Below, one piece after another: positions 14,503 through 64,000 of a DNA stretch of 64,000 nucleotides; position 1 is the first letter of the stretch; every line of letters starts with the position of its first letter. Below the pieces are notes generated by a model. It was not told where the DNA came from, did not search any database, and saw only the letters and a program-made list of their open reading frames with translations. The translations under genes were made by a program, and so were the position numbers. Source of the DNA: Eledone cirrhosa (Eukaryota); contig OZ024741.1 of assembly GCA_964016885.1 (NCBI GenBank), forward strand, positions 361,460,001 through 361,524,000, read 5' to 3'.

Positions 14503-14651
14503 TAGAAGTGGTAACACAACAGTTAGTTCACCATACCGAGAACAATTGTTTCACCTTAGCGGTATAACCATGTCCATTACGAGCTGAAGATCAGCTAAGG
14601 TGAAATAATTGTTCTCGGTATGGTGAACTAACTGTTGTGTTAACACTTCTA
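14503..14651. repeat. 58-bp inverted repeat enclosing a hammerhead motif (+, 14574-14623)
   Basis: Arms 14503-14560 / 14594-14651; CCAT-TA-CGAG-CTGAAGA..GAAATAATTGTT-CTCG-GT-ATGG; the left arm preserves the palindromic stem III ACAATTGT. Confidence 0.75.
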
Positions 14652-16365: not shown

Positions 16366-16750
16366 GCAAAAGGGATATTTAATTTGTTGGTAATTCACAA
16401 CAAATATATATATTTATAACTGATTCGAAGCACTTGACAGGTTTTCTGGAGTATAATATCGATGATATTAATAAATGGAAACTGTATTTATAAAACCATA
16501 TTTTTTCTACTATATATATTTCAAGAGTACCAAAACTTTGGTACGCTCTCATCAGATAAAATACAAAGTTTGTTTTATAAACTATCCAAGAAAAACTTGA
16601 ACCGCTAAGATCTCCTTCCTGGATATGTCAATATTTATAAAACAATAAAACAAACTTTGTATTTTATCTGATGAGAGTGTACCAAAGTTTTAGTACCCTT
16701 GAAATATATATAATAGAATAAATATGGTTTTATAAATAGTTTCCATTTAC
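16364..16750. mobile_element. Hammerhead-bearing short element with internal inverted duplication (HHR on both strands: 16503-16563 minus, 16660-16720 plus)
   Basis: TATTTTAT-CTGATGA-GAG..GTAC..GTAC..CTT-GAAATATATATA-ATAGAATA; arms 16472-16580 / 16634-16750; homologous to 20143-20375. Confidence 0.8.
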
Positions 16751-17540: not shown

Positions 17541-17914
17541 CAATCCATATTTTTGTGTACATATATATATATATATGCGTATGTGTGTTATGTATTTCCG
17601 TAGAAAGGGTAAAGGAAAGAAGAGTGCTCTATGTACAGTACAGAGCTATTTAATTATATAATAAACAACACAATATAATTATTCCATTACCTAAGGTTTC
17701 ATGAAATTAGATAATTCTAACGGGGACGATTCTGTTAGAATTATCTAATTTCATGAAACCTTAGGTAATGGAATAATTATATTGTGTTGTTTATTATATA
17801 ATTAAATAGCTCTGTACTGTACATAGAGCACTCTTCTTTCCTTTACCCTTTCTACGGAAATACATAACACACACACGCATATATATATATATATGTACAC
17901 AAAAATATGGATTG
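17541..17914. repeat. ~181-bp near-perfect palindrome with 12-bp spacer, derived from the 6660-6752 hammerhead family
   Basis: Arms 17541-17721 / 17734-17914; the inner parts align with 6660-6730 (GAAACCTTAGGTAATGGAAT half of the ribozyme). Confidence 0.92.
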
Positions 17915-20142: not shown

Positions 20143-20375
20143 TAAGCAAAGGGATATTTAATTTGTTGGTAATTCAACAGACTCGAAGCAATCGACAGGT
20201 TTTCTGCAGTATAATATCCAGGTGAAACTTGAACCGTTAAGGTCTCATTCCTGGATATGTCAATATTTATAAAACAAACTTTGTATTTTATCTGATGAGA
20301 GCGTACCAAAGTTTTGGTACCCTTGAAATATATATAATAGAATAAATATGGTTTTATAAATATAGTTGCCATTTA
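20143..20375 (+). mobile_element. Second copy of the 16364 element with a type I hammerhead (20284-20344)
   Basis: CTGATGA 20292-20298; stem II GAG-C-GTACCAA/TTGGTAC-C-CTT; GAAA 20325; palindromic ATATATAT stem III; AUA triplet; 8-bp stem I. Confidence 0.82.
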
Positions 20376-25191: not shown

Positions 25192-28100
25192 TAGCGACAA
25201 TGCCAAAGATAAAGACAAATTCACCTCGTGGACGAGAATGCGAGCACTCCTCCTCTTTGTTTCGGCCGCGGATGGCTAACATAACCCCATCTCCCTCTGC
25301 CCCCCACTGCTCCCACCCTCCAAACGCAATCCAAAACTTCAGAGTTGGTACCATGAATGTAGGCACCTTAAAGGGTCGCTCTAACGAGGTTGTAGAAATG
25401 CTTGAACGTAAGGAGGTCGATGTTTGTTGTATTCAAGAGACCAGGTGGAGGGGTGGGTCTGCTAGATTCATTGTGGGTAAAAAAACGATGCTATAAGCTT
25501 TTCTGGGTGGGAAATGACAATGGGCTGGGTGGAGAAGGAATCATGGTAGCAGAAAAGTGGGCAGATAAGATAATAGACGTAAATAGAGTGAACGACAGAA
25601 TAATTAAAATAAGACTTGTCCTCAATAGAACTACGGTGACAGTAATATCTGCGTACGCACCCCAATCCGGACTGCCCGGCACTATAAAAGACAGATTCTA
25701 TGAGACACTGATGCTCACTACCTCCCAAATAACCGACAGTGACTATATAATTATTGCAGGCGACCTAAATGGTCACGTTGGACAACATTGTGACGGCTAC
25801 AACGAAATCCATGGAGGCTATGGGTTTGGTACTAGAAATGAGGAAGGCTCCAGAATCCTGGAATTCTGTGACGCAAATAACCTAACTATCTGTAACACTA
25901 ACTTCAAAAAACGTGACAATCACCTGATCACCTATAGATTGGGGGAACACACAAGCCAGGTAGATTATATCCTTACCAGAAGACGTGACAGAGTGTCTGT
26001 TGTAAACACTAAATCCCTCCCCCATGAAGAATGCACCACCCAACATAGACTGATAATTAGCGACCTAATAGTCAGGACGAGACGTACTAGACAGCAGAAG
26101 AGGACTATCCTCAGGAGAAAAATATGGAAGCTAAAGGACCCCACAGCCAGAAATAAATTTAAAAGCATACTACTTGATGCTTTTGACAGTAAGGAAGAGC
26201 AATTAGAGTCGTACAATATAGAGGAACAGTGGGAATTCCTGAAAGCAAACCTGCTGATGGCGGCAGACGAAGTCTGTGGCTGGAGCAGGCCTGTAGGCAG
26301 GAGGAGAGTAACATGGTGGTGGAACAGTAAGGTGGAGGGGTCAATTAAGGCCAAAAAGCAGGCTTGGAAAGTATGGCGGGATGGGGGGAAGTAGAGAAGA
26401 CTATCAAGTGGCCAGGAGGGAAGCTAGGAGACAAGTGTACTTCGCAAGAAGGGAAGCAGAGGAAAGAAAATTCAAGCATGTTCTACAACGCGAGGACCAA
26501 AAACGTGAGGTGTTCAGAATTGCTAGGCAATGTGTCAAGGAAAACCGTGATATTGTCGGGGAGAAGTGTGTACTTAATGATGACGGCGTACTTGCCATCA
26601 CCGACGCTGATAAGACGGTAGCTTGGAAGTGTCACTACGAAAGGCTACTAAATGAGGAGAATAAATGGGAGAAAGACAGTCTCCCCCACATCGACCCAAT
26701 AGAGGGACCAGCAGTGTTAGTCGAGGGTAGTATAATAAGTAAGGCAATCAAAGATATTAAGACGGGTAAGGCGGCTGGGCCTTCGGAAATAGTTGCGGAG
26801 ATGCTGAAGGCATCTGGAACGGTGGGACACACCATGGTCACCCGGATAGTTAACCAAGTCGTACAGAATGGGGTTGTTCCGAAGGAATGGCGTAGCAGCA
26901 TCATCGTTAACTGTTATAAGGGTAAAGGAGATGCCCTAGATAGGAGTAACTATAGAGGCATTAAATTAATCGACCAGGTCATGAAAGTCACGGAAAAAGT
27001 AATAGCGCAACTAATCAGAGAGAGAATTGATCTAGATGAAATGCAGTTCGGGTTTGTGTCAGGCAAAAGTACCACAGACGCTCTTTTCATTGTACGACAA
27101 CTACAGGAGAAGTACCTAGCTAAAAGTAAACCCCTCTACTTAGCTTTTGTCGACTTGGAGAAAGCCTTCGACAGAGTCCCCCGTTCCATTATCTGGTGGG
27201 CTCTTAGAAAACTAGGTGTTGACGAATGGCTTGTGAGAGCTATACAAGCCATGTATAAAGAAACAGTCAGCAAGGTTAGAATTAACAACGAATATAGTGA
27301 AGAGTTTAGCGTAAAAGTTGGTGTCCATCAGGGCTCTGTTCTTAGCCCCCTACTATTTATTATTGCCCTTCAGGCTATAACAGAGGAGTTCAAGACCGGC
27401 TGCCCATGGGAACTCCTATACGCAGATGACCTAACACTCATAGCTGAATCAATGGCTGAGCTAGAGAAGAAATTCCAAACATGGAAGCACGGCCTAGAAT
27501 CAAAAGGCCTTAAAATTAACCTGGCTAAGACTAAAGTTCTAGTTTGTAAGAAAGAAAATAAGGCGGCGGTCCCTTCCGGGAAGTGGCCATGCTCAGTGTG
27601 TAGGAAAGGCGTAGGTAGAAACTCCATTTTATGTCCCAAATGCAAAGTATGGGTGCATAAAAGATGTAGTGGGATCACAGGTAAGCTAACTAAGAACATA
27701 GATTTTACATGTGGCCGGTGTTCTGGTGCAATAAGTAGCAGCAAGTGCCCACAAAATACTAGCTCTTTCAACTGCGCAGAGGGTTCTATAGAAATAGTGG
27801 ACAGCTTCCGTTACCTGGGTGACAAAATCAGCAGTGGGGGAGGGTGCTCTGAAAGTACAGTAGCTAGAGTCAGAACTGGATGGAAAAAGTTCAGAGAGCT
27901 TATACCACTATTAGCCGCTAAAGGGTTCTCCCTAAAAATGAAAGGCAGGTTGTATGATGCCTGCATACGAACAGCAATGTTGCATGGCAGTGGGACCTGG
28001 GCATTGTGTGCAGAGGATATACGCAGACTAGAGAGGAACGAAGCTTGCATGCTCCGCTGGATGTGTAATAGTAATATACGTGAACGGCAAAGCATAAACG

Positions 28101-28755
28101 AACTAAGGAAAAAATTAGAAATAAGAGGGATCAGATGTTGTTTACTCGAGAGAAGGCTACGTTGGTATGGTCACGTGATGCGCATGAAAGACGATAGCTG
28201 TATAACAAAGTGCAGGGCAATAAAGATAGACGGTAGCCATGGAGTAGGCAGACCCAGAAAAACCTGGGACGAGCTGATAAATTCCGACCTCACACACTTA
28301 CACCTCTCCAAGACAATGTCACTGGACCGAGACCTTTGGCGGTACTCAGTAATAGAGAAGACCCGCCTTACCTAAATACAAAGTAAAACCTACTACAGTC
28401 AGTAGGCATCTCTAACAAAACACACCCCCGTCACACCACCCCCACCCCATCCACACCGCCCCTTTCAATGTAAAGTTATGTTGGTGCCACAACATCCAGG
28501 CCGAAACAAATGAGATCGTGTAGGTGTCACGAAAAAAAAACACAGTCCACGCTGTAATGTGGCCGTGTAGGCAACACGGTAAAAACCTCCCAGCCCCACA
28601 CTGTAAATGTGGTTGGTGTTAGGAAGGGCATCCAGCTGTAGAAAACCCGCCAGACAGTCCTATGCGAGCAAGACAATCACTCTTGCCTCAAGTGGGAAAA
28701 CCCCCGTCCAAACCCATGCAAGCGTGGAACACGGACGTTAAACGTAGATGATGAT
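25192..28755 (+). mobile_element. Near full-length RTE-clade LINE inserted in (TA)n
   Basis: Single APE+RT coding region, 380-bp 3' UTR, (GAT)n tail, TA repeats on both sides. Confidence 0.97.
25200..28375 (+). CDS. RTE ORF: AP endonuclease + reverse transcriptase, broken by two homopolymer frameshifts (~25485, ~26385)
   Basis: TMNVGTL, CIQETRW, YAPQ, GDLNGHVG, QVDYIL, QHRL (APE); FVDLEKAFD, QGSVLSP, YADD, FRYLG (RT); GRPRKTW C-terminus. Confidence 0.93.
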
Positions 28756-28979
28756 ATATATATATAGTATACGAGGATCGGAATTAAGAGTATTCCGCAG
28801 TTCACAGTAATAATAATAATTGTTTCTACTTTTGGCACAAGGCCACCAATTACCCAGTGTATTACTGGCACTTTATTTTATCGACCCCGTAAGGATGAAA
28901 GGCAAAGTTAACCTCGGCAGGATAATAATAATATTAGCTCAAAGAAGAATAGAGAATTTTCTTCTGAGCTCAAATGCAA

Positions 28980-29442
28980 ATATATTACACAACGAGAAGT
29001 GTGTTACACAGTGAAATGTGTGTAAAGAATTATTACAAGTGAGTTTTACCGTTACTGTATAGAGAACAATATCTACAGATTTAGCAATTAAATAGAAAAA
29101 AACTAAGTCAGAATCAAATCTCTGAAGTAGAGTTTTAAATTACCAACCTTATAACTATAAGTTTGCTGATACGAATCTCGTTCATTTGCTGACTGAGGAT
29201 CCTGTGGGCTGTTAAACTGCACATTTCTGTGGTGAAACGAACGAGATTCGTATCAGCAAACTTATAGTTATAAGGTTGGTAATTTAAAACTCTACTTCAG
29301 AGATTTGATTCTGACTTAGTTTTTTTCTATTTAATTGCTAAACCTGTAGATATTGTTCTCTATACAGTAACGGTAAAACTCACTTGTAATAATTCTTTAC
29401 ACACATCTCACTGTGTAACACACTTCTCTTTGTGTAATATAT
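28980..29442. repeat. 204-bp inverted duplication with 55-bp spacer
   Basis: Arms 28980-29183 / 29239-29442; about 3 mismatches seen by eye. Confidence 0.95.
29185..29260 (+). ncRNA. Type I hammerhead ribozyme at the palindrome centre
   Basis: TTTGCTGA-CTGAGGA-(stem II, TGTG..CACA)-GAA-ACGAA-CGAGA-TTCGT-A-TCAGCAAA: 8-bp stem I, 5-bp stem III, GUA triplet. Confidence 0.82.
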
Positions 29443-29459
29443 ATGTATATACATAGGCA

Positions 29460-29780: not shown

Positions 29781-29791
29781 GTGTATATATA

Positions 29792-31095
29792 TAGGGTGCG
29801 GACGATATTTGTTCGCAAGATTACTGTCTAGGAAAAAATAACACAGTAGTTTTATTTTTTAAGATATATTTATCAAACTTAGGTCAGTTTGTCTTCATGA
29901 CTTGTTCTTTCGATCTCACTCGATAAACCCGCCATTGGCTTTGATGACGGCCTCAAGGCGGCCTCGGAACCGGCTACAGACCTTCGTCACTGTTCCCCGA
30001 CTTAGGCCCCTAAAGGCACTTGTGATCCTGGCCTTCAGATCGTCTTTTGTATTGCAGTATTGCTGTTCGTGTCTCGTTCCACTGCACCCACACAAAGAAG
30101 TCGAGGGGGTTGCAGTCAGGCGAGCTGGGAGGCCAGATATCAGGTGAAGTGTGGTCGACGAAGTTCTCTGATAGCCAGGCCTAGGTCTTTCAGCTGGTAT
30201 GGCAGGGCGCTGAGTCTTGCTGTCACACGTACAGCCTATCTGCAGTTACCTGGTCGATCTAGGGCTTTACTACCTCGCTCAGAACGTGGATGTAGTCATC
30301 GGTGTTCAGCTTGAGGCCCTCAGGGAAGAAGTGAGGTGGCATGATGTCACCTTGACTGCTGACGACACCTAAGACCAATGTTGTCGCTGGAAACTTTGTT
30401 TGCATGACTCTGGGCACGTCTTTGGATGAGACAGCGAGCCACCTGTTGTTCTGGGAGTTGATCTTCTGGTCTTGGCAGAAGTTTTTCTTGTCGGAGAAAA
30501 ACCACCACATGTCTGGCTCCAGTGGATGTTTCAACTTGTTGATCAGCTTCTTTGCGTGCTTCAGTCGCTTTTCTTGCATCGCCTTTGACAGAAATTGTCC
30601 TTTCCTCATCTTGTATGAAAGGTAGCAAATGTCTTCATGTACCACCAGCCTAATGAGCTTTTCATCCACGCCTTTCTCCCTTGCAATGCACGCATCGACT
30701 TGCTAGGTTCATTGTTGATGATATCCTGAACTTCAGCGATGAACTCGGGCGTTCTGCAGGCGTCAGATTGTCGATCATATGTTTTCCTCTCTGATGTTGC
30801 TTCGTAGTCGAATCCTGAATCTTCCAATTCCTTTCTGACCTTTTCCACCATTCTTCTGCTGATGCTGAGAAAGTCTGAAATTTCCTTATTTGTCCTCTCG
30901 GTGCGGATTCCAAGAAGAACTCCGTGTCTCTTCCACAAATTTGGAGGTTCAAAATTATTCATAATCAATTATTCTGAAAATAAATAATGGAAATATAGTC
31001 ACTGTTTTTATGAAGACAAGAGTGTCAACGGAAGTAAAAAAAATTTGCATAAAATTAGCAGTTGAAAATTGCGAATAAATATCGTCCACACCCTG
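29792..31095 (-). mobile_element. Tc1/mariner superfamily, maT (DD37D) transposon with defective transposase
   Basis: 27-bp TIRs (C/T)AGGGTG(C/T)GGACGATATTT(G/A)TTCGCAA; TA target duplication; FFSD..QQDSAPCH-x-SPDCNPLD with 37 residues between D2 and D3; stops and frameshifts. Confidence 0.93.
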
Positions 31096-31229
31096 TATAA
31101 GAATAACATTAAGAAAGATGCTGATGTTACATAAATCGTTTATTCATAATAATTATTTCAAATGTTCTCCCATGCAATCAAAGATGTAATTCATGCATTT
31201 GTTGTTATGAGAATGGTAACTACGATTAT

Positions 31230-32340
31230 GAAAAAATTAATTAAATTCTTCAAAAACATGGGCCTCAGCATAGATATAGACGATAACAGAAAAATAGTTA
31301 ACTTCCTGGACGTAACCCTCAATTTAGAATCCGGCCTCTACTACCCGTACCACAAACCGAACAATATGGGCCACCTCCCACTCTTCGAACTGGAACCCCT
31401 CAGTTCGGGATGCTCCAATCGGCATAGACAATCCAACGGGCAGTGGCGAGCCGTGAGGCACGACCATTCTGTGCCCACGGTAGTTGCATAACGCATACCC
31501 GGACAGAGCAGGTAACGGGATCGAGGCCAACACCAGGAAGCGAACCTGTTCCTGCAATGTCATAAGGTATAACCCCCCCCCCCCTCTCTGCACCGGATTA
31601 CGCAGCAACCTTGTGGCCTCTTTCTTCAGGGCCTTGGATAAGCACTTCCCTAAACAGCACAGGTATTGCACCATTTTCAATAGTCACACAATTAAATTGT
31701 CCTACTCCACAACTAGAAACCTGGCACAAAATTTAGAAACCTTAAACTAGAGTAGATTAAGAAACGTCCATGACTCCGAGGGAGTCAGTAACCAGGATGA
31801 GGCCTACAGCACATGATTCTTCCTTCGATAATAACACTATGGACCGGGCGCAACCACGGAATCATACATCACAATCCGGTAATCCAGGCAGCAACACCTC
31901 CCCGGATTATAATTGTAGAAGCCCTGGTAACTGCCTCTTGGAAGGCAAATGCCTTAGCAGTAACTTAGTTTATGAATGTAGGGTAAGTACCAATAGCTAA
32001 ACCTTCACCTATATCGGGACTATGGTTAATAAATTTAAGGAACGCTGGTACAACCACTGCCACACTTTTAAGAGAATGGATAAGAAAAACAGCACCGCCC
32101 TCGCCGAACAGGTGTGACGACTCAAGCATGACAACATTGGACACACGCTGTCGTGATCTAAGGTCACTTCAGCCCAACTCTATAGGGGAGGAGGGCATGA
32201 CTCATGCAATCTCTGTGTCACCGAAATTATGGAGATAATAAAGATGGGAGCACAAGTTATCAATAAAAGAAATAACCTGTTCAGCACCTACCACCACAGA
32301 TCAACTGGAACCTTCCTCAGACTATACAAATTAGCAATGT
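31230..32340 (+). mobile_element. Penelope-like element relic (RT C-terminal part + Cys linker + GIY-YIG endonuclease)
   Basis: VNFLDVTLNL..YYPYHKPNN; YNPP..LDKHFPK..IFN..TIKLSYS; NCRSPGNCLLEGKCL..VYEC; YIGT..FKERWYNH. Confidence 0.88.
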
Positions 32341-45460: not shown

Positions 45461-47388
45461 TGGTATAATGTTCATATATTTTCATCTATGTTTTAGACCA
45501 TACAGTATTACATCATTATTAACATCATTTGACCATTTTTCCATGATGGTATGAGTTGAATCGGTCATTAGAAACCAATTCAATGCTTAATTGAATCTAC
45601 TGTTCACCTATAGATGAAGGTGCACAACCCAGTGGTTAGAGTGTTGGACTCATAATAATAAGACTTTGCGTTCTTGAACAAGAGACTTCGTTTCATTTTT
45701 CTCCAGTTCATTTAGCTGAAAAAGAAAAGAAAATGTGTATCAGCAGCAACTGGGGTTAATTCCTGCAATAGACTGGTAGGAGGGAGTCTTTTCATAGTAG
45801 GTCTGGGGCTCCTATCATTAAAACACCCAAGAAACCTTCTATAAGATGAAACCTCATATAAAGCCAGCTAAACATAGGTGTGAGCTGTAACATTAACTAT
45901 CCTCCTTTTCAATGCATTTCATTTTTTGGCATGGTTTCTATCACTAGATGCCCTTTTTAATGCCAACCACTTGACAGCGATCTGCCATCTTTGAAATTTA
46001 ATTTTGCTACAGACAAATTCCATTTGTTATTATTTGCAGTAATATTCTTTTTCATTGAAATGAAGCAGTAATTTGAATAACACAGCTAACTACATTGTTA
46101 AAGATAATAGAATTTTATTCTTACAATTATTCTAATACTGGCTCCACCTACTTAAAAACATTTTGTATTTCATATTACGATGTTTGCAATTCTTGGATTA
46201 CATAACCTATAAACAATTTCAGCAATATTTACTTTTTTATGTTTGTTTTTGCAGTACAAGTGTCTGAGAGGTTTCTTGAAATTTAGAAACACTTATAATA
46301 TCAGACACTTTCATTTTGCAACATGAAGAAAAAATAATCAAATATATAAATATCTTAGATGAGTTAATAATAATTGTTAATAATAATTGTTTAAACAATT
46401 AACCTCACTTTTACACTAGCATCATCATCACATCTGTTTCTTCATGCCTGTATGAGTTAGATGAGTCCTCTCCAGAACAGCTGATCTCCACTAGTTTTTT
46501 TCTTTTATCATTTCCTTTGTGAGGAGTGAAGATACATTGCCTAGTGGTTACGATGTTGGATTTATGATCTTAGGTTATGGGGTTGATTTTTTTAGATTCT
46601 TTAAAATAGGTGGTTTTGTTTCATAGAATCAGAGCCAGTTTTTGCCTGGGTTGGCATCACAAGGATTTATTGGTGTATAGCAGAATCGGTAGAGTGGTGA
46701 GCAGAATACCTTGTGGTATTTGGTTATGTTCCTTTATATTCTATGTTTTAATCCTGCCCCGTGTCACTGTGCCTTTTCATCTTTCCTAAAGCAAGAAAAA
46801 TAAGTATTGTGGTTGATGTATTTGGCTATATTGGAGGTGGCATTGTTGTTGCATGGTCACAGTCCAATTATTGAAATGAGTTAGAGAGAGATTCATTCTC
46901 TTACTTTCAGTAATTGGAATATGGTCATGCAACAATGGGGCCACCTTAAATATATGAAAGACTAAGAGATCCTTAAAACCCTTTGTGAAGAGTGAAGACA
47001 CTGCCTATGATTTTCAAACCATCTAAAAATAATGAAGAAAGATTCAATGGTTAGATCAGAATAAGGAAACAATGTTTCCATTGGTCTTTCTATTGCTGAC
47101 ACTAACTGTACTGTTTAACTCTTAACATACCGAGATGATTCAACAAAAAATATTTAAAAACCAGACTGTTAATTCTTATGTTTATATCTTTACTAGTGAA
47201 CGGGGCATTGCAAACATTTGCAATACATGAAAAACTTCAATTTCTAATGTGAAGCAGTCATAGGGCTTTTTTTATACTTCTCAAGAATGTCTTGATAATG
47301 CAGTTTCATATGGTACAGGATTTAAGAGTTAAAATCATTGTCTAAAATTGATTATATATATGTATACATGTGTGTCCATATATATATA

Positions 47389-47475: not shown

Positions 47476-50400
47476 GATGGTTGTTATGGTGTTAGATGGT
47501 TGTTATGGTGTTAGATGGTTGTTATGGTGTTAGATGGTTGTTATGGTGTTAGATGGTTGTTATGGTGTTAGATGGTTGTTATGGTGTTAGATGGTTGTTA
47601 TGGTGTTAGATGGTTGTTACAGTGTTAGATGGTTGTTACAGTGTTAGATGGTTGTTATGGTATTAGATGGTTGTTATGGTGTTAGATGGTTGTTACAGTG
47701 TTAGATGGTTGTTATGGTGTTAGATGGTTGTTATGGTGTTAGATGGTTGTTATGGTGTTAGATGGTTGTTATGGTGTTAGATGGTTGTTACAGTGTTAGA
47801 TGGTTGTTACAGTGTTAGATGGTTGTTATGGTATTAGATGGTTGTTATGGTGTTAGATGGTTGTTACAGTGTTAGATGGTTGTTATGGTGTTAGATGGTT
47901 GTTATGGTGTTAGATGGTTGTTATGGTGTTAGATGGTTGTTACAGTGTTAGATGGTTGTTATGGTGTTAGATGGTTGTTCAGTATTAGATGGTTGTTACA
48001 GTGTTAGATGGTTGTTATGGTGTTATATGGTTGTTATGGTGTTAGATGGTTGTTATGGTATTACATGGTTGTTATGGTGTTAGATGGTTGTTATGGTGTT
48101 AGATGGTTGTTACAGTGTTAGATGGTTGTTATGGTGTTAGATGGTTGTTACGGTGTTAGATGGTTGTTATGGTGTTAGATGGTTGTATGGTATTAGATGG
48201 TTGTTTCAGTGTTAGATGGTTGTTATGGTGTTAGATGGTTGTTACAGTGTTAGATGGTTGTTATGGTATTAGATGGTTGTTATGGTGTTAGATGGTTGTT
48301 ACAGTGTTAGATGGTTGTTATGGTGTTAGATGGTTGTTATGGTGTTAGATGGTTGTTACAGTGTTAGATGGTTGTTACAGTGTTAGATGGTTGTTATGGT
48401 GTTAGATGGTTGTTATGGTATTACATGGTTGTTATGGTGTTAGATGGTTGTTATAGTGTTAGATGGTTGTTATGGTGTTAGATGGTTGTTACAGTGTTAG
48501 ATGGTTGTTATGGTGTTAGATGGTTGTTATGGTGTTAGATGGTTGTTCTGGTGTTAGGTGGTTGTAATGGTGTTAAATTGTTGTTACGGTGTTAGATGGT
48601 TGTTATGGTGTTAGATGGTTGTTATGGTATTAGATGGTTGTTTCAGTGTTAGATGGTTGTTATGTTGTATATGGTTGTTATGGTGTTAGATGGTTGTTAT
48701 GGTGTTAGATGGTTGTTATGGTGTTAGATGGTTGTTATGGTGTTAGATGGTTGTTATGGTGTTAGATGGTTGTTATGGTGTTAGATGGTTGTTACGGTGT
48801 TAGATGGTTGTTATGGTGTTAGATGGTTGTTATGGTGTTAGATGGTTGTTATTGTGTTAGATGGTTGTTATGGTGTTAGATGGTTGTTATGGTGTTAGAT
48901 GGTTGTTATGGTGTTAGATGGTTGTTACAGTGTTAGATGGTTGTTATGGTGTTAGATGGTTGTTATGGTGTTAGATCGTTGCTATGGTGTTAGATAGTTG
49001 TTACAGTGTTAGATGGTTGTTATGGTGTTAGATGGTTGTTATGGTGTTAGATGGTTGTTACAGTGTTAGATGGTTGTTATGGTGTTATATGGTTGTCATG
49101 GTGTCGCATTGTTGTTATGGTGTTACATGGTTGTTATGGTGTGAGATGGTTGCTATGGTGTTATATGGTTGTTATGGTGTCACATGGTTGTTATGGTGTT
49201 AGATGGTTGTTATAGTTTTAGATGCTTGTTACAGTGTTAGATGGTTGTTACGGTATTAGATGGTTGTTACAGTGTTAGATGGTTGCTAAGGTGTTAAATC
49301 GTTGTTATGGTGTTATATGGTTGTTCTGGTGTTAGATGGTTGTTTCAGTGTTAAATGGTTGTTATGGTGTTAGATGGTTGTTACAGTGTTAGATGGTTGT
49401 TATGGTGTTAGATGGTTGTTATGGTGTTAGATGGTTGTTATGGTGTTAGATGGTTGTTATGCTGTTAGATGGTTGCTATGTTGTATATGGTTGTTATGGT
49501 GTTACATGGTTTTTATGGTGTTAGATGGTTGTTATGGTGTTAGATGGTTGTTATGGTGTTAGATGGTTGTTACAGGGTTAGATGGTTGTTATGGTGTTAA
49601 ATGGTTGTTATGGTGTTAGATGGTTGCTATGGTGTTATATGGTTGTTATGGTGTTAGATGGTTCTTATGGTGTTAGATTGTTGTTATGGTGTTGGATGGT
49701 TGTTATGGTGTTAGATGGTTACCATGTTATATGGTTGTTATGGTGTTAGATGCTTGTTATGGTGTTAGATGGTTGTTACAGTTTTAGATGGTTGTTATGG
49801 TGTTAGATGGTTGTTACAGTGTTAGATCGTTGTTATGGTGTTATATGGTTGTTATGGTGTTAGATGGTTGTTGCAGTGTTAGATGGTTGCTATGGTGTTA
49901 GATGGTTGTTATGGTGTTAGATGGTGGTTATGGTGTTAGATGGTTGTTACAGTGTTAGATGGTTGTTATGGTGTTATATGGTTGTTATGGTATTAGATTG
50001 TTGTTATTGTGTTAGATGGTTATTTCAGCGTTACATGGTTGTTATGGTGTTAGATGGTTGTTACAGTGTTAGATGGTTGTTATGGTGTTATATGGTCGTT
50101 ATGGTGTTAGATGGTTGTTATGGTGTGAGATGGTTGTTATGGTGTGAGATGGTTGTTATGGTGTTAGATGGTTGTTATGGTGTTACATGGTTTTTATGGT
50201 GTTAGATGGTTGTTATGGTGTTAGATGGTTGTTATGGTGTTAGATGGTTGTTATGGTGTTATATGGTTGTTATGGTGTTACATGGTTTTTATGGTGTTAC
50301 ATGGTTGTTACAGAGTTAGATGGTTGTTATGGTGTTAGATGGTTGCTATGTTGTATATGGTTGTTATGGTGTTAGATGGTTGTTATGGTGTTAGATGGTT

Positions 50401-53400
50401 GTTATGGTGTTAGATTGTTGTTACAGGGTTATATGTTTGTTATGGTGTTAGATTATTGTTACAGGGTTATATGGTTGATATGGTGTTACATGGTTGATAT
50501 GGTGTTAGATGGTTGTTACAGTTTTAGATGGTTGTTATGGTGTTAGATGGTCGTTACAGTGTTAGATGGTTGTTACAGTGTTAGATGGTTGTTATGGTGT
50601 TAGATGGTTGTTACAGTGTTAGATGGTTGTTACAGTGTTAGATGGTTGTTATGGTGTTAGATGGTTGATATGGTGTTACATGGTTGATATGGTGTTAGAT
50701 GGTTGTTACAGTTTTAGATGGTTGTTATGGTGTTAGATGGTCGTTACAGTGTTAGATGGTTGTTACAGTGTTAGATGGTTGTTATGGTGTTAGATGGTTG
50801 TTACAGTGTTAGATGGTTGTTATGGTTTTAGATGGTTGTTATGGTGTTATATAGTTGTCATGGTGTCACATTGTTGTTATGGTGTTACATGGTTGTTATG
50901 GTGTGAGATGGTTGCTATGGTGTTATATGGTTGTTATGGTGTCAGATGGTTGTTATGGTGTTAGATGGTTGTTATGGTTTTAGATGGTTGTTATGGTGTT
51001 AGATGGTTGTTACAGTGTTAGATGGTTGTTATGGTGTTAGATGGTTGTTATGGTGTTAGATGGTTGTTACAGTGCTAGATGGTTGTTATGGTTTTAGATG
51101 GTTGTTATGGTGTTAGATGGTTGTTACAGTGTTAGATGTTTGCGATGGTGTTATATGGTTGATATGGTGTTAGATGGTTGTTAGAGTGTTATATGGTTGT
51201 TATGGTGTTAGATGGTTGTTATGGTGTTAGATGGTTGCTACAGTGTTAGATCGTTGTTATGGTGTTAGATGGTGGTTACTGTGTTACATGATTGTTATGG
51301 TGTTAGATGGTTGTTACAGTGTTAGATGGTTGTTATGGTGTTAGATGGTTGTTATTGTGTTAGATGGTTGTTATTGTGTTAGATGGTTGTTATGGTGTTA
51401 GATGGTTGTTTCAGCGTTAGATGGTTGTTATGGTGTTATATGGTCGTTATGGTGTTAGATGGTTGTTATGGTGTGAGATGGTTGTTATGGTGTTAGATGG
51501 TTGTTATGGTGTTACATGGTTTTTATGGTGTTAGATGGTTGTTACAGAGTTAGATGGTTGTTATGGTGTTAGATGGTTGTTACAGTGTTAGATGGTTGTT
51601 ATGGTGTTAGATGGTTGTTATGGTGTTAGATGGTTGTTACGGTGTTAGATTGTTGCTACAGGGTTATATGGTTGTTATGGTGTTAGATGGTTGTTACAGG
51701 GTTATATGGTTGATATGGTGTTAGATGGTTGTTATGGTGTTAGATGGTTGTTACAGTTTTAGATGGTTGTTCTGGTGTTAGATGGTTGTTACAGTGTTAG
51801 ATGGTTGTTATGGGGTTATATGGTTGTTACAGTGTTAGATGGTTGTTACAGTGTTATATGGTTGTTATGGTGTTAGATGGTTGTTACAGTGTTAGATGGT
51901 TGTTACAGTGTTAGATGGTTGTTATGGTTTTAGATGGTTACCGCGTTAGCTGGTTGTTATGGTGTTAGATCGTTGCTATGGTGTTAGATGGTTGTTACAG
52001 TGTTAGATGGTTGTTATGGTGTTAGATGGTTGTTATGGTGTTAGATGGTTGTTACAGTGTTAGATGGTTGTTATGGTTTTAGATGGTTGTTATGGTGTTA
52101 TATAGTTGTCATGGTATCACATTGTTGTTATGGTGTTACATGGTTGTTATGGTGTGAGATGGTTGCTATGGTGTTATATGGTTGTTATGGTGTCAGATGG
52201 TTGTTATGGTGTTAGATGGTTGTTATGGTTTTAGATGGTTATTATGGTGTTAGATGGTTGTTACAGTGTTAGATGGTTGTTATGGTGTTAGATGGTTGTT
52301 ATGGTCTTAGATGGTTGTTTCAGTGTTAGATGGTTGTCACAGTGCTAGATGGTTGCTAGAGTGTTAGATCGTTGTTATGGTGTTAGATGGTGGTTACTGT
52401 GTTACATGATTCTTATGGTGTTAGATGGTTGTTACAGTGTTAGATGGTTGTTATGGTGTTAGATGGTTGTTATGGTGTTAGATGGTTGTTACAGTTTTAA
52501 ATGGTTGTTATGGTGTTAGATGGTTGTTACAGTGGTAGATGGTTGTTATGGGGTTATATGGTTGTTACAGCGTTAGATCGTTGTTATGGTGTTATATGGT
52601 TGTTACAGTGTTATATGGTTGTTATGGTGTTAGATGGTTGTTCCAGTGTTAGATGGTTGTTATGGTGTTAAATTGTTGTTATGGTGTTAGATGGTTGTTA
52701 TGATGTTAGCTGGTTGTTACAATGTTAGATGGTCGCTATGGTGTTAGATTGTTGTTATGGTGTTAGATGGTTGTTTCAGTGTTAGATGGTTGTTATGGTG
52801 TTATATGGTTGTTATGCTGTTAGATGTTTGTTATGGTGATAGGTGGTTGTTATGGTGTGAGATGGTTGCTATGGTGTTATATGGTTGTTATGGTGTCAGA
52901 TGGTTGTTATGGTTTTAGATGGTTGTTATGGTGTTAGATGGTTGTTACAGTGTTAGATGGTTGTTACAGTGTTAGATGGTTGTTATGGTGTTAGATGGTT
53001 GTTATGGTGTTAGATGGTTGTTATGGTGTTAGATGGTTGTTTCAGTGTTAGATGGTTGTTACAGTGCTAGATGGTTGTTATGGTGTTAGATAGTTGTCAT
53101 GGTGTTAGATGGTTGTTACAGTGTTAGATGTTTGCTATGGTGTTATACGGTTGATATGGTGTTAGATGGTTGTTATAGTGTTAGATGGTTGTTATGGTGT
53201 TAGATGGTTGTTATGGTGTTAGATGGTTGTTTCAGTGTTAGATGGTTGTTATGGTGTTAGATGGTTGTTATGGTGTTATATGGTTGTTACAATGTTAGAT
53301 GGTCGTTATGGTGTTAGATGGTTGTTATGGTGTTAGATGGTTGTTTCAGTGTTAGATGGTTGTCATGGTGTTAGATAGTTGTTACAGTGTTAGATGGTTG

Positions 53401-56400
53401 TTGTGGTGTTAGATGGTTGTTATTGTGTTATATGGTTGTTACAGTGTTAGATGGTTGTTATGGTGTTAGATGGTTGTTACAGTGTTACATGATTGTTACA
53501 GTGTTAGATGGTTGTTACAGGGTTAGATGGTTGTTATGGTGTTAGATGGTTGCTATGGTGTTATATGGTTGTTATGGTGTTACATGGTTGTTATGGTGTT
53601 AGATGGTTGTTTCAGTGTTAGATGGTTGTTTCAGTATTAGATGGTTGTTACAGTGTTAGATGGTTGTTATGGTGTTAGATGGTTGTTATTATGTTATATG
53701 GTTGTTACAGTGTTAGATGGTTGTTATGGTGTTAGATGGTTGTTACAGTGTTACATGATTGTTACAGTGTTAGATGGTTGTTACAGGGTTAGATGGTTGT
53801 TATGGTGTTAGATGGTTGCTATGGTGTTATATGGTTGTTATGGTGTTACATGGTTGTTATGGTGTTAGATGGTTGTTACAGTTTTAGAATATTGTTATGG
53901 TGTTAGATGGTTGTTACGATGTTAGATGGTCGTTATGGTGTTAGATGGTTGTTATGGTGTTAGATGGTTGTTATGGTGTTAGATGGTTGTTATGGTGTTA
54001 TATGGTTGTTATGCTGTTAGATGGTTGTTATGGTGTTAGATGGTTGTTATGGTGTTAGGTGGTTGTTACAGGGTTAGATGGTTGTTATGGTGTTAGATAG
54101 TTGCTATGGAGTTATATGGTTGTTATGGTGTTAGATGGTTGTTACAGTTTTAGATGGTTGTTATCCTGTTAGATGGTTGTTACATTGCTAGATGGTTGTT
54201 ATGGTGTTAGATGGTTGTTATGGTGTTAGATGGTTGTTATCCTGTTAGATGGTCGTTACAGTGTTAGATGGTTGTTATGGTGTTAGATGGTTGTTATGGT
54301 GTTAGATGGTTGTTATCTTGTTAGATGGTCGTTACAGTGTTAGATGGTTGTTATGGTGTTAGATGGTTGTTATGGTGTTAGAATGGTTGTTATGGTTGTC
54401 AGGGTGTTAGATGGTTGTTATGGTGTTAGATGGTTGTTATGGTGTTATATGGTTGTTATGGTGTTATATGGTTGTTACAGTGTTAGATGGTTGTTAGACT
54501 GTTATATGGTTGGTATGGTGTTAGATGGTTGTTATGGTGCTAGATGGTTGTTACAGTGTTAGATGGTTGTTATGGTTTTAGATGGTTGTTATGGTGTTAG
54601 ATGGTTGTTATGGTGTTAGATGGTTGTTATGGTGTTAGATGGTTGTTACAGTGTTAGATGGTTGTTATGGTGTTAGATGGTTGTTATGGTGTTAGATGGT
54701 TGTTATGGTGTTAGATGGTTGTTATGGTGTTAGATGGTTGTTACAGGGTTAGATGGTTGTTATGGTGTTAGATGGCTGTTATGGTGTTAGATGGTTGTTA
54801 TGGTGTTAAATGGTTGCTATGGGGATATATGGTTGTTATGGTGTTAGATGGTTGTTACAGTTTTAGATGGTTGTTATGGTGTTAGAGGGTTGTTACAGTG
54901 CTAGATGGTTGTTACAGTGCTAGATGGTTGTTATGGTTTTAGATGGTTGTTATGGTGTTAGATGGTTGTTATGGGGTTATATGGTTGTTATGGTGTTAGA
55001 TGGTTGTTACAGTGTTAGATTCTTGTTATGGTGTTAGATGGTTGTTACAGTGTTAGATGGTTGTTACAGTGTCAGATGGTTGTTATGGTGTTAGATGGTT
55101 GTTACAGTGTTACATGGTTGTTATGGTGTTAGATGGTTGTTACAGTGTTAGAAGGTTGTTATGGTTTTAGATGGTTGTTACAGTGTTAGATGGTTGTTAT
55201 GGTGTTAGATGGTTGCTATGGTGTTATATGGTTGTTATGGTGTCAGATGGTTGTTATGGTGTTAGATGGTTGTTATGGTTTTAGATGGTTGTTATGGTGT
55301 TAGATGGTTGTTATGGTGTTAGATGGTTGTTTCAGTGTTAGATGGTTGTTATGGTGTTAGATGGTTGTTATGGTGTTATATGGTTGTTATGGTGTTAGAT
55401 GGTTGTTATGGTGTTAGATGGTTGTTTCAGTGTTAGATGGTTGTCATGGTGTTAGATGGATGTTACAGTGTTAGATGGTTGTTACAGTGTTACATGATTG
55501 TTACAGTGTTAGATGGTTGTTACAGGGTTAGATGGTTGTTATGGTGTTAGATGGTTGCTATGGTGTTATATGGTTGTTATGGTGTTAGATGGTTGTTATG
55601 GTGTTAGATGGTTGTTACAGTTTTAGAATATTGTTATGGTGTTAGATGGTTGTTACAGTGTTAGATGGTTGTTATGGTGTTAGATGGTTGTTATGGTGTT
55701 AGATGGTTGTTACAATGTTAGATGGTCGTTATGGTGTTAGATGGTTGTTATGGTGTTAGATGGTTGTTACAGTGTTAGATGGTTGTTATGGTGTTATATG
55801 GTTGTTATGCTGTTAGATGGTTGTTATGGTGTTAGATGGTTTTTATGGTGTTAGATGGTTGTTACAGAGTTAGATGGTTGTTATGGTGTTAGATGGTTGT
55901 TACAGTGTTAGATGGTTGTTACAGTGTTAGATGGTTGTTATGGTGTTAGATGGTTGTTATGGTGTTAGATGGTTGTTATGGTGTTAGGTGGTTGTTACAG
56001 TGTTAGATGGTTATTATGGTGTTAGATGGTTGTTATGGTGTTAGATAGTTGCTATGGAGTTATATGGTTGTTATGGTGTTAGATGGTTGTTACAGTTTTA
56101 GATGGTTGTTATGGTGTTAGATGTTTGTTACAGTGCTAGATGGTTGTCATGGTGTTAGATGGTTGTTATGGGGTTATATGGTTGTTACAGTGTTAGATCG
56201 TTGTTATGGTGTTATATGGTTGTTACAGTGTTATATGGTTGTTATGGTGTTAGATGGTTGTTATGGTGTTAGATGGTTGTTATGGTGTTAGATGGTTGTT
56301 ACAGTGTTAGATGGTTGTTATGGTGTTAGATGGTTGTTATGGTGTTAGATGGTTGTTATGGTGTTAGATGGTTGTTATGGTGTTAGATGGTTGTTACAGG

Positions 56401-59400
56401 GTTAGATGGTTGTTATGGTGTTAGATGGCTGTTATGGTGTTAGATGGTTGTTATGGTGTTAAATGGTTGCTATGGGGATATATGGTTGTTATGGTGTTAG
56501 ATGGTTGTTACAGTTTTAGATGGTTGTTATGGTGTTAGAGGGTTGTTACAGTGCTAGATGGTTGTTACAGTGCTAGATGGTTGTTATGGTTTTAGATGGT
56601 TGTTATGGTGTTAGATGGTTGTTATGGGGTTATATGGTTGTTATGGTGTTAGATGGTTGTTACAGTGTTAGATTCTTGTTATGGTGTTAGATGGTTGTTA
56701 CAGTGTTAGATTGTTGTTACAGTGTCAGATGGTTGTTATGGTGTTAGATGGTTGTTACAATGGTAGATGGTCGTTACAGTGTTACATGGTTGTTATGGTG
56801 TTAGATGGTTGTTACAGTGTTAGAAGGTTGTTATGGTTTTAGATGGTTGTTACAGTGTTAGATGGTTGTTATGGTGTTAGATGGTTGCTATGGTGTTATA
56901 TGGTTGTTATGGTGTCAGATGGTTGTTATGGTGTTAGATGGTTGTTATGGTTTTAGATGGTTGTTATGGTGTTAGATGGTTGTTATGGTGTTAGATGGTT
57001 GTTTCAGTGTTAGATGGTTGTTATGGTGTTATATGGTTGTTACAATGTTAGATGGTCGTTATGGTGTTAGATGGTTGTTATGGTGTCAGATGGTTGTTAT
57101 GGTGTTAGATGGTTGTTATGGTGTTAGATGGTTGTTTCAGTGTTAGATGGTTGTCATGGTGTTAGATGGATGTTACAGTGTTAGATGGTTGTTACAGTGT
57201 TACATGATTGTTACAGTGTTAGATGGTTGTTACAGGGTTAGATGGTTGTTATGGTGTTAGATGGTTGTTATGGTGTTAGATGGTTGTTTCAGTGTTAGAT
57301 GGTTGTTATGGTGTTATATGGTTGTTACAATGTTAGATGGTCGTTATGGTGTTAGATGGTTGTTATGGTGTTATATGGTTGTTATGCTGTTAGATGGTTG
57401 TTATGGTGTTAGGTGTTTGTTACAGAGTTAGATGGTTGTTATGGTGTTAGATGGTTTTTATGGTGTTAGATGGTTGTTACAGAGTTAGATGGTTGTTATG
57501 GTGTTAGATGGTTGTTACAGTGTTAGATGGTTGTTACAGTGTTAGATGGTTGTTATGGTGTTAGATGGTTGTTATGGTGTTAGATGGTTGTTATGGTGTT
57601 AGGTGGTTGTTACAGGGTTAGATGGTTATTATGGTGTTAGATGGTTGTTATGGTGTTAGATAGTTGCTATGGAGTTATATGGTTGTTATGGTGTTAGATG
57701 GTTGTTACAGTTTTAGATGGTTGTTATGGTGTTAGATGGTTGTTACAGTGCTAGATGGTTGTTATGGTGTTAGATGGTTGTTATGGGGTTATATGGTTGT
57801 TACAGTGTTAGATCGTTGTTATGGTGTTATATGGTTGTTACAGTGTTATATGGTTGTTATGGTGTTAGATGGTTGTTACAGTGTTAGATGGTTGTTACAG
57901 TGTTAGATGCTTGTTATGGTGTTAGATGGTTGTTATGGTGTTAGATGGTTGTTACAGTGTTAGATGGTTGTTACAGTGTTAGATGCTTGTTATGGTATTA
58001 GATGGTTGTTACAATGGTAGATGGTTGTTACAGTGTTACATGGTTGTTATGTTGTTAGATGGTTGTTACAGTGTTAGATGGTTTTATGGTTTTAGATGGT
58101 TGTTATGGTGTCACATGGTTGTTATGGTGTTAGATGGTTGCTATGGTGTTATATGGTTGTTATGGTGTCAGATGGTTGTTATGGTGTTAGATGGTTGTTA
58201 TGGTTTTAGATGGTTGTTATGGTGTTAGATGGTTGTTACAGTGTTAGATGTTTGCTATGGTGTTATATGGTTGATATGGTGTTAGATGGTTGTTACAGTG
58301 TTAGATGGTTTTATGGTTTTAGATGGTTGTTATGGTGTCACATGGTTGTTATGGTGTTAGATGTTTGCTATGGTGTTATATGGTTGTTATGGTGTCAGAT
58401 GGTTGTTATGGTGTTAGATGGTTGTTACGGTGTTAGATGGTTGTTATGGTGTTAGATGGTTGTTATGGTGTTAGATGGTTGTTATGGTGTTAGATGGTTG
58501 TTAGTGTTAGATGGTTGTTAGGGTGTTAAATTGTTGTTACAGTGTTAGATGGTTGTTATGGTGTTAGATGGTTGTTACAGTGTTAGATGGTTGTTACAGT
58601 GTTAGATGGTTGTTATGGTGTTACATGATTGTTGTGGTGTTAGATGGTTGTTTCAGTATTAGATGGTTGTTACAGTGTTAGATGGTTGTTATGGTGTTAG
58701 ATGGTTGTTACAGTGTTAGATGGTTGTTATGGTGTTAGATGGTTGTTATGGTGTTAGATGGTTGTTACAGTGTTAGATGGTTGTTATGGTGTTAGATGGT
58801 TGTTACAGTATTAGATGGTTGTTATGTTGTTAGATGGTTGTTATGGTGTTAGATGGTTGTTACAGTGTTAGATGGTTGTTATGGTGTTAGATGGTTGTTA
58901 CAGTGTTAGATGGTTGTTATGGTGTTAGATGGTTGTTACAGTGTTAGATGGTTGTTATGGTTTTAGATGGTCGTTATGCTGTTAGATGGTTGTTATGGTG
59001 TTAGGTGTTTGTTACAGAGTTAGATGGTTGTTATGGTGTTAGATGGTTTTTATGGTGTTAGATGGTTGTTACAGTGTTAGATGGTTGTTATGGTGTTACA
59101 TGATTGTTGTGGTGTTAGATGGTTGTTTCAGTATTAGATGGTTGTTACAGTGTTAGATGGTTGTTATGGTGTTAGATGGTTGTTACAGTGTTAGATGGTT
59201 GTTATGGTGTTAGATGGTTGTTATGGTGTTAGATGGTTGTTACAGTGTTAGATGCTTGTTATGGTATTAGATGGTTGTTACAATGGTAGATGGTTGTTAC
59301 AGTGTTACATGGTTGTTATGTTGTTAGATGGTTGTTACAGTGTTAGATGGTTTTATGGTTTTAGATGGTTGTTATGGTGTCACATGGTTGTTATGGTGTT

Positions 59401-62400: not shown

Positions 62401-64000
62401 CAGATGGTTGTTATGGTGTTAGATGGTTGTTATGGTGTTAGATGGTTGTTTCAGTGTTAGATGGTTGTCATGGTGTTAGATGGTTGTTACAGTGTTAGAT
62501 GGTTGTTACAGTGTTACATGATTGTTACAGTGTTAGATGGTTGTTACAGTGTTAGATGGTTGTTATGGTGTTAGATGGTTGCTATGGTGTTATATGGTTG
62601 TTATGGTGTTAGATGGTTGTTATGGTGTTAGATGGTTGTTACAGTTTTAGAATATTGTTATGGTGTTAGATGGTTGTTACAGTGTTAGATGGTTGTTACG
62701 GTGTTAGATGGTTGTTATAATGTTAGATGGTTGTTATAATGTTAGATGGTTGTTATGGTGTTAGATGGTTGTTACAGTGTTAGATGGTTGTTATGGTGTT
62801 ATATGGTTGTTATGCTGTTAGATGGTTGTTATGGTGTTAGGTGTTTGTTACAGAGTTAGATGGTTGTTATGGTGTTAGATGGTTGTTATGGTGTTAGATG
62901 GTTGTTATGGTGTTAGATGGTTGTTAGGGTGTTAAATTGTTGTTACAGTGTTAGATGGTTGTTATGGTGTTAGATGGTTGTTACAGTGTTAGATGGTTGT
63001 TATGGTGTTACATGATTGTTGTGGTGTTAGATGGTTGTTTCAGTATTAGATGGTTGTTTCAGTATTAGATGGTTGTTACAGTGTTAGATGGTTGTTATGG
63101 TGTTAGATGGTTGTTACAGTGTTAGATGGTTGTTATGGTGTTAGATGGTTGTTATGGTGTTAGATGGTTGTTACAGTGTTAGATGGTTGTTATGGTGTTA
63201 GATGGTTGTTATGGTGTTAGATGGTTGTTATGGTGTTAGATGGTTGTTACAGTATTAGATGGTTGTTATGTTGTTAGATGGTTGTTATGGTGTTAGATGG
63301 TTGTTACAGTGTTAGATGGTTGTTATGGTGTTAGATGGTTGTTACAGTGTTAGATGGTTGTTATGGTGTTAGATGGTTGTTATGGTGTTATATGGTTGTT
63401 ACAGTGTTAGATGGTTGTTATGGTTTTAGATGGTCGTTATGCTGTTAGATGGTTGTTATGGTGTTAGGTGTTTGTTACAGAGTTAGATGGTTGTTATGGT
63501 GTTAGATGGTTTTTATGGTGTTAGATGGTTGTTACAGAGTTAGATGGTTGTTATGGTGTTAGATGGTTGTTTCAGTGTTAGATGGTTGTTATGGTGTTAG
63601 ATGGTTGTTATGGTGTTATATGGTTGTTACAATGTTAGATGGTCGTTATGGTGTTAGATGGTTGTTATGGTGTCAGATGGTTGTTATGGTGTTAGATGGT
63701 TGTTATGGTGTTAGATGGTTGTTTCAGTGTTAGATGGTTGTCATGGTGTTAGATGGTTGTTACAGTGTTAGATGGTTGTTACAGTGTTACATGATTGTTA
63801 CAGTGTTAGATGGTTGTTACAGGGTTAGATGGTTGTTATGGTGTTAGATTGTTGCTATGGTGTTATATGGTTGTTATGGTGTTAGATGGTTGTTATGGTG
63901 TTAGATGGTTGTTACAGTTTTAGAATATTGTTATGGTGTTAGATGGTTGTTACAGTGTTAGATGGTTGTTATGGTGTTAGATGGTTGTTATGGTGTTAGA
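47476..64000. repeat. 19-bp satellite (GATGGTTGTTATGGTGTTA; main variant ..TTACAGTGTTA), ~870 units, with higher-order repeats
   Basis: Period 19 read directly; identical variant blocks at 57983, 59252 and 61702; continues past the window end. Confidence 0.99.

What the first reader, a model, noticed from the sequence alone, without database searches (positions are those of the whole stretch)
28980..29442. 204-bp hairpin whose loop is the 5' two-thirds of an intact-looking hammerhead
The spacer begins right at the 5' strand of stem I (TTTGCTGA), and the left arm is complementary to the ribozyme's stem III and cleavage-site strand. A + transcript could therefore fold either as a ~200-bp dsRNA or as the ribozyme, which are mutually exclusive. 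The ~3 arm mismatches suggest recent origin. Long dsRNA would be an ADAR/Dicer substrate, relevant if the host is a coleoid (inference).
Basis: partly seen in the sequence, partly recalled or inferred. Interest (0 to 1): 0.75.

Follow-up and report, generated by a model that had tools for sequence, protein, structure and literature searches.

The report
Hairpin scar of a retrozyme insertion
The hairpin is real and is one of many head-to-head copies of a small non-coding, ribozyme-bearing repeat that was likely pasted in by a Penelope-type enzyme, so it is likely not a switch; what stands out is family-wide: the two arms of each classifiable hairpin end at two different fixed sites, and the ribozyme has a predicted long latch helix that this copy has lost.

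Summary
The 204-bp arms (3 mismatches) and the type I hammerhead motif are confirmed. The locus is two 5'-truncated copies, joined head to head in a (TA)n site, of a dispersed, ORF-less ~545-nt tandem unit (non-LTR retrozyme type; about 1,300 candidate fragments in the genome). 87 of 135 loci examined have such an inverted arm, and 23 of 117 mask their hammerhead the same way. It is not a balanced switch: the ribozyme fold costs 38.8 kcal/mol inside the hairpin, and this copy lacks the family's 5' flank. Two family-level results are new to my searches. First, copies end at one of two fixed sites about 100 nt apart (A, B), and inverted pairs are A+B in 60 of 60 classifiable cases, 8 of 8 in a sister family and 5 of 5 in a coding Hydra-clade Penelope element, which points to Penelope-type, two-primer insertion of retrozymes. 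Second, the hammerhead has a 2-bp stem II whose large loop pairs over ~20 bp with the 5' flank, kept with different sequences across the superfamily (2,079 motif hits, control 11). Cleavage, expression and editing were not testable; raw-read support for the junction was inconclusive.

The parts
28754..28766 (.). (TA)n target tract at the left end
   Evidence: sequence; family ends abut (TA)n
28767..28818 (-). Outer half of the ~100-nt tail of the left (inverted) copy; its end at 28767 is the family's fixed end B
   Evidence: 100% match to unit positions 308-364; profile hit 28757-28840
28819..28921 (.). Later insertion (~110 nt) of a very abundant unrelated repeat (SINE-like; label recalled) into the (TAA)n run of the tail
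   Evidence: other copies skip 109-115 nt here, depth far higher; same site interrupted in L015
28922..28979 (-). Inner half of the tail of the left copy (hairpin just after end A)
28980..29183 (-). Left arm: 5'-truncated inverted copy, unit positions ~55-258; carries all 3 arm differences
   Evidence: majority letters in reads match the right arm at 28993, 29015, 29079
29183..29184 (+). Head-to-head junction; the direct copy starts here with only 2 nt of the family's 5' flank (1 shared base)
   Evidence: comparison with 29 other loci; upstream extension 2 nt
29185..29260 (+). Type I hammerhead motif: stem I 29185-92/29253-60; core 29193-99 and 29234-37; U.U at 10.1/11.1; 2-bp stem II 29201-02/29231-32; 28-nt loop II 29203-30; stem III 29237-41/29247-51; predicted cut after 29252
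29203..29224 (+). Loop II strand that pairs with the 5' flank in complete family copies (partner absent at this locus)
   Evidence: 20 pairs, 90% paired, 4 with compensatory change
29239..29442 (+). Right arm: paired part of the direct copy, ending at the family's fixed end A in a TA-rich tract

Best explanation
The locus is two 5'-truncated copies of an ORF-less, hammerhead-bearing ~545-nt repeat unit joined head to head in a (TA)n tract, and it was likely made in one insertion event by a borrowed Penelope-type reverse transcriptase/endonuclease. Shown: the unit, its tandem forms, two fixed 3' ends A and B about 100 nt apart, one of each in every classifiable inverted pair, and arms that each hold sequence the other lacks. 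Inferred: the enzyme nicks both strands of the (TA)n site, one nick primes copying at internal site B and the other at site A of the same or a like RNA, both copies stop early, and repair joins them with a few bases of overlap or gap. The hairpin and the masking of the ribozyme are by-products. If transcribed from upstream, the RNA is predicted to form the long duplex and not to cleave; this copy is likely a dead end.
For: 1,244 and 1,317 candidates, best 40 at 94-100%. Period 549 in L019, two-ribozyme dimers spaced 548 and 547; longest stop-free stretch 64 codons on the sense strand. 87 of 135 distinct loci have a head-to-head arm, 1 tail-to-tail; 60 of 60 classifiable pairs are A+B, none AA or BB (34/34 first, then 25/25 in 40 loci fetched afterwards). 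Sister family 8 of 8 among 24 loci; coding element 5 of 5 where both ends were in view, tail ~100 nt, with the Hydra-clade motifs RWK, DKT, CxCx5C, CxxC, CxH. In 27 of 59 pairs, this one included, the A arm reaches further 5' while the B arm has the tail. Arms of one locus are closer to each other than to the family median in 37 of 41. Junction gap -10 to +12 in 69 of 75. Inverted 5'-truncated copy, one-sided tail and (TA)n bias are described for endonuclease-bearing Penelope elements (PMC8557442, PMC3846280); the tail is the stretch between two RT start sites (PMC11167929). Folding.
Against: No coding partner that shares sequence with the unit was found in 38 loci of one Hydra-like group. 27 of 87 inverted loci could not be classified; two of them (L009, L154) run past A on one arm and have B on the other and may be B+B with later damage. 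The tail is ~100 nt, not the published 30-40. In vitro, the lizard Poseidon element showed no difference in start site between the two strands, which does not predict strict A+B. Samples were the best or first hits, not random. No contig listed bridges this junction (inconclusive).
Confidence: 0.87

Rival explanations
1. Selected RNA switch or host-used element: the transcript chooses between ribozyme and long dsRNA, feeding ADAR or Dicer.
For: The folds are mutually exclusive; the loop holds 71% of the motif; a read-through RNA would be a ~200-bp duplex. A slight excess of junctions just upstream of stem I (11 raw, 8 after removing 3 indel artefacts, against 4.2 per bin).
Against: 38.8 kcal/mol gap; 23 of 117 loci mask the ribozyme likewise; the 5' flank is lost; the setting is a mosaic of repeats; no A>G excess among private changes (2.02 vs 1.99 per 1000 for T>C; at most 3 per arm in 172 arms).
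Confidence: 0.05
2. One arm is a fold-back copy of the other made in DNA during insertion (self-priming), not a second copy from RNA.
For: Self-priming was proposed for Penelope inverted repeats (PMC3846280); arms of one locus are alike; junctions have small overlaps.
Against: A plain fold-back needs one arm to contain the other. Here and in 27 of 59 pairs each arm holds sequence the other lacks; B further in 31, tie 1. It survives only with an added switch back to the RNA.
Confidence: 0.12
3. Assembly or long-read fold-back artefact.
For: No listed contig of runs X1-X4 bridges the junction.
Against: The arms differ at 3 places, all on the left arm; the left copy has ~100 nt more plus an inserted repeat; the flanks differ; the layout recurs with a strict end rule in 87 of 135 loci. 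The runs hold only 0.33-0.65 of the stretch's words and a filter drops records.
Confidence: 0.03
4. The unit is the truncated end of an unfound coding Penelope element rather than an independent ORF-less element.
For: Same tail length, target and end rule as the coding Hydra-clade family; most copies are truncated.
Against: After end B the sequence runs 187 nt straight into the next hammerhead in all long copies read; full two-ribozyme dimers exist; no ORF beside the unit among the long ORFs listed for 80 distinct loci.
Confidence: 0.1

Closest known systems
Metazoan non-LTR retrozymes (Cervera and de la Pena 2020, PMC7229834; Li et al. bioRxiv 10.64898/2026.07.22.740005)
   Same: Non-coding tandem unit, low GC (36%), one type I hammerhead per unit, dimers with two ribozymes, co-occurring with coding Penelope elements.
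   Different: Unit ~545 nt against ~170-400 nt; mostly dispersed, truncated and inverted copies; fixed double 3' ends. The passages I read give no tail or inverted-arm anatomy for retrozymes (the 2026 preprint has 0 occurrences of 'tail'; PMC7229834 has 0 of 'inverted'). Circular RNA and cleavage untested here.
Insertions of endonuclease-bearing Penelope-like elements, Hydra clade (Craig et al. 2021, PMC8557442; Arkhipova et al. 2013, PMC3846280; Frangieh et al. 2024, PMC11167929)
   Same: Head-to-head inverted 5'-truncated copy, partial tandems, tail on one arm, (TA)n targets, hammerhead near the end.
   Different: No ORF; tail ~100 nt, not 30-40; the tail is described as optional or often one-sided, here it is one-sided in every classifiable pair.
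Pseudoknotted hammerheads (Perreault et al. 2011, PMC3088659)
   Same: 2-bp stem II, U10.1-U11.1 tolerated, base-paired contact joining the ends of stems I and II.
   Different: Published pseudoknots in the passages read are 4-6 bp; here the flank:loop II helix is ~20 bp with only 6-11 nt left to close stem II, too long to form whole in an active monomer (geometric inference).

Membership tests
Non-LTR retrozyme | Type I hammerhead in a short tandem unit | tested here: met
   period 549
Non-LTR retrozyme | [quoted passage not shown] | tested here: met
   for the family: L167, L168, spacing 548 and 547; not for this locus
Non-LTR retrozyme | No protein coding; GC below 45% | tested here: met
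   longest stop-free stretch 64 codons sense, 125 antisense; GC 36.5%
Non-LTR retrozyme | Monomer of about 170-400 nt (typical size, not a strict rule) | tested here: not met
   545-549 nt against the range
Non-LTR retrozyme | Self-cleavage and accumulation as circular RNA | not testable with these tools
   no RNA holder listed; circular fold z -1.8 against 40 shuffles
Penelope-type insertion | Adjacent inverted 5'-truncated copy, head to head | tested here: met
   87 of 135 loci, 1 tail-to-tail
Penelope-type insertion | Tail at one end | tested here: met
   60 of 60 A+B; length ~100 nt differs from 30-40
Penelope-type insertion | AT-rich or (TA)n target | tested here: met
Autonomous Penelope-like element | RT plus GIY-YIG ORF | tested here: not met
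   none in the unit; no protein remnant of P0001
Autonomous Penelope-like element | Ends shared with a coding partner | tested here: inconclusive
   none in 38 loci of one Hydra-like group; other groups not examined
Type I hammerhead | Core CUGANGA / GAAA / NUH with stems I and III | tested here: met
   stem I 99% paired, one pair changed on both sides in 11 of 99 rows; stem III 98.8%
Type I hammerhead | Stem II opening with a standard 10.1-11.1 pair | tested here: not met
   standard pair in 7 of 99 rows; U.U here, a tolerated variant
Type I hammerhead | [quoted passage not shown] | tested here: inconclusive
   flank:loop II helix in complete copies; partner strand absent at this locus
Type I hammerhead | Match to an Rfam hammerhead model | tested here: not met
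   none at E<=1 in the window or E<=10 in 29170-29280
Type I hammerhead | Cleavage after GUA | not testable with these tools
   needs an assay
MITE / terminal-inverted-repeat DNA element | Two identical fixed termini, constant length | tested here: not met
   the two termini differ (A, B), inner ends vary freely

The most novel reading that the evidence does not exclude
This genome holds a superfamily of at least two thousand retrozyme hammerheads with a built-in latch: a ~20-bp helix between the 5' flank and loop II forms first during transcription and keeps the ribozyme off until its far half is opened (by the Penelope protein or by a neighbouring unit), leaving the near half as the activating pseudoknot; and the elements are inserted by an asymmetric Penelope complex in which one DNA strand always primes at site A and the other at site B of one RNA.
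Probability: 0.3. Interest if true: 0.72.

Novelty: new variant of a known kind. Interest (0 to 1): 0.44.

Why it matters
The locus itself is an ordinary insertion scar. The family matters for two open questions. How animal retrozymes move has rested on co-occurrence and phylogeny; here their copies carry the insertion anatomy of Penelope elements, shared with a coding family in the same genome. How Penelope elements make inverted copies is unvalidated; a strict one-A-one-B rule, with arms that cannot be copies of each other, gives a sharp prediction for the existing in vitro system. The latch helix offers a testable reason why Penelope-linked hammerheads cleave poorly alone. Because about two thirds of sampled copies are hairpins, the family is also a likely source of long dsRNA where transcribed.

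Tried and rejected
Rfam: no hammerhead match; the miRNA-family hits are below threshold and reflect hairpins. Public runs: no RNA holder listed, which says nothing on expression. Laying reads: two stretches laid; no listed record bridges 29183/29184 (36 records not shown) and the one exact contig over the left boundary has only 17 letters on one side, so neither counts. My early idea that 29184 is a fourth arm mismatch was dropped: the family has A there. Rival stem II registers: a helix inside loop II is 98% paired but has 1 compensatory row; a hairpin just before GAAA is 83.5% paired with none; the alignment's own consensus fold kept stem I and the inner helix and gave no hammerhead core. 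The flank:loop II helix gave 33 two-sided cells against 11.8 in shuffles, but rows are related and pair-type counts did not beat shuffles; across clusters 19 of 26 loci beat at least 198 of 200 shuffles, only 13 of 26 beat every cross partner, and 7 failed (two have lost the flank). Rows dropped before counts: 13 duplicate loci; 9 of 96 and 15 of 118 hammerhead rows with truncated or unmatched flank, 4 identical rows each; 27 of 87 inverted loci unclassifiable. Junctions at the cleavage site: 2 of 174 ends within 3 nt. ADAR footprint: none. Partner search: blastn, profile and tblastn against 38 loci found only a sister retrozyme inserted in L181. Pfam did not name the coding element and the protein atlas gave no answer; its Hydra label rests on motifs. 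The bacterial promoter scan is not informative here. Host identity was not tested.

Full report
Observation. The inverted repeat is there: arms 28980-29183 and 29239-29442, 204 bp, mismatches at 28993, 29015 and 29079. The 55-nt spacer holds the first 54 nt of a type I hammerhead motif, 29185-29260, with the predicted cut after 29252. Rfam does not score it as a hammerhead.

What it belongs to. The stretch 29185-29448 has 1,244 candidates in the own genome; the 40 scored are 96-100% identical. Reading the flanks shows a unit of about 545-549 nt that runs back into itself, with no ORF, GC 36.5%, and true two-ribozyme dimers. The exact hammerhead pattern has 212 copies, control 0. That is the layout of a non-LTR retrozyme (PMC7229834: passages and section 14; bioRxiv 10.64898/2026.07.22.740005: first fifth of the text and passages), though longer than the 170-400 nt reported.

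How the hairpin arose. Copies end at one of two fixed places, A (unit position ~257-263) and B (~362), both beside (TA)n. Of 135 distinct loci, 87 have a head-to-head inverted arm and 48 are single (26 A, 21 B, 1 other). Of the 87, 60 have both ends classifiable and all 60 are A+B. The first count was 34 of 34, and 40 loci fetched afterwards gave 25 of 25. 27 could not be classified; two may be damaged B+B cases. At this locus the right arm ends at A (29442) and the left copy runs on through the tail to B (28767), with a later ~110-nt insertion in the tail. A sister family with a 523-539-nt unit gives 8 of 8 A+B among 24 loci. A coding element with an intact 894-codon frame and Hydra-clade motifs gives 5 of 5 where both ends were fetched, also with a ~100-nt tail. 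An inverted truncated copy, a tail often at one end and (TA)n targets are known for endonuclease-bearing Penelope elements (PMC8557442: passages and section 11; PMC3846280: passages), and the tail is the stretch between two internal RT start sites (PMC11167929: passages and second part of the main text). In 27 of 59 pairs, this one included, each arm holds sequence the other lacks, so a plain fold-back does not explain them; arms of one locus are closer than the family median in 37 of 41. I infer two primings, one at each site, in one event. The partner enzyme is not identified: 38 loci of one Hydra-like group share no detectable sequence with the unit.

Is it a switch? With the left arm present the ribozyme fold costs 38.8 kcal/mol and stems I-III have probability 0.0; 15 nt of arm already remove stem I; alone the motif is 10 kcal/mol above its best fold in a model without tertiary contacts. 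The masking is common: 23 of 117 loci, or 5 of 30 and 11 of 40 among copies taken largely in genome order. Junctions in the first 10 nt upstream of stem I number 11 of 118, 8 after removing three indel artefacts, against 4.2 per bin (p about 0.07): at most a weak excess. No A>G excess is seen in private changes. Expression could not be tested.

The ribozyme. In 99 family rows stem I is 99% paired with a two-sided change in 11 rows; stem II is CC/GG under a pair that is standard in only 7 rows; and the 28-nt loop II pairs with the ~24 nt upstream of stem I (20 pairs, 90% paired, 4 with two-sided changes). Rows are related, so this is not a probability. A looser pattern finds 2,079 motifs, control 11. 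In 26 loci that fall into 9 loop-sequence clusters, the own flank pairs with loop II better than at least 198 of 200 shuffles in 19; 7 fail, two of them because the flank is gone. Two-pair stems II, U.U at 10.1-11.1 and pseudoknots that are needed for speed are known (PMC3088659: passages). A 20-bp helix with 6-11 nt left to close stem II seems too long for an active monomer (my geometric inference), and in 6 of the 7 complete copies of this family whose folds I printed with the full flank it is the lowest-energy fold, opening the core. I propose that the near part is the activating contact and the whole helix an off state. Penelope-linked hammerheads are reported to cleave poorly alone, as dimers or with protein help (PMC4209133: first quarter of the text). 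This copy keeps 2 nt of the flank, so a test of 29185-29260 alone would not represent the family.

Artefact? Unlikely on internal grounds: different arm ends, three left-arm changes, an insertion on one side, different flanks. Reads neither confirm nor deny the junction.

Novelty. Eight searches and the passages read gave no report of Penelope-type double ends in retrozymes, of a strict A+B rule, or of this long flank helix; an octopus repeat annotation has no mention of hammerheads or retrozymes (PMC13282606: passages). Subscription papers are not covered, and I did not open supplements, where hammerhead structures of Hydra elements and mussel retrozymes may bear on the helix. Earlier notes of this scan describe similar stubs; they are unchecked and are not support. 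The host is called an octopus only in those notes; I did not test it. SINE-like and mariner-like labels are recalled.

Verdict. The locus is an ordinary scar of a retrozyme-type family with Penelope-type insertion; the family's end rule and ribozyme layout are a new variant worth testing. Interest 0.44.

Noticed in passing
window 16485-16738, 20292-20328: Another fold-back (94-nt arms) with a minimal hammerhead core in both arms, and a third copy at 20292; a different family.
   Followed up: no
window 14503-14651, 17541-17914, 46826-46955: Further fold-backs beside TA tracts; the window has 15 hammerhead-core matches against 2.6 expected.
   Followed up: no
window 25396-28375: LINE-like element on the + strand in two frames, with RT and a PHD-finger match.
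   Followed up: partly
window 29788-31099: Broken transposase-like frames between 31-nt inverted repeats (mariner-like, label recalled).
   Followed up: no
window 31153-31491: Fragment of a Hydra-like Penelope RT; 23,453 candidates in the genome, some in frames of 850-900 codons.
   Followed up: yes
L169, L172, L173, L177: Coding Hydra-clade copies with inverted arms of 1.6-3.6 kb at ~100% identity, so likely very recent; a minimal hammerhead lies ~70 nt before end A.
   Followed up: partly
L181:3923-4640; L187-L210: Sister retrozyme family (1,902 candidates) with the same ribozyme layout; its tail opens with a hairpin whose base resembles that of this family.
   Followed up: partly
window 28819-28921; L015: The (TAA)n run in the tail is hit by the same abundant repeat in more than one copy.
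   Followed up: no
window 47476-64000: Satellite of a 19-nt unit, 870 copies, strong strand skew.
   Followed up: no
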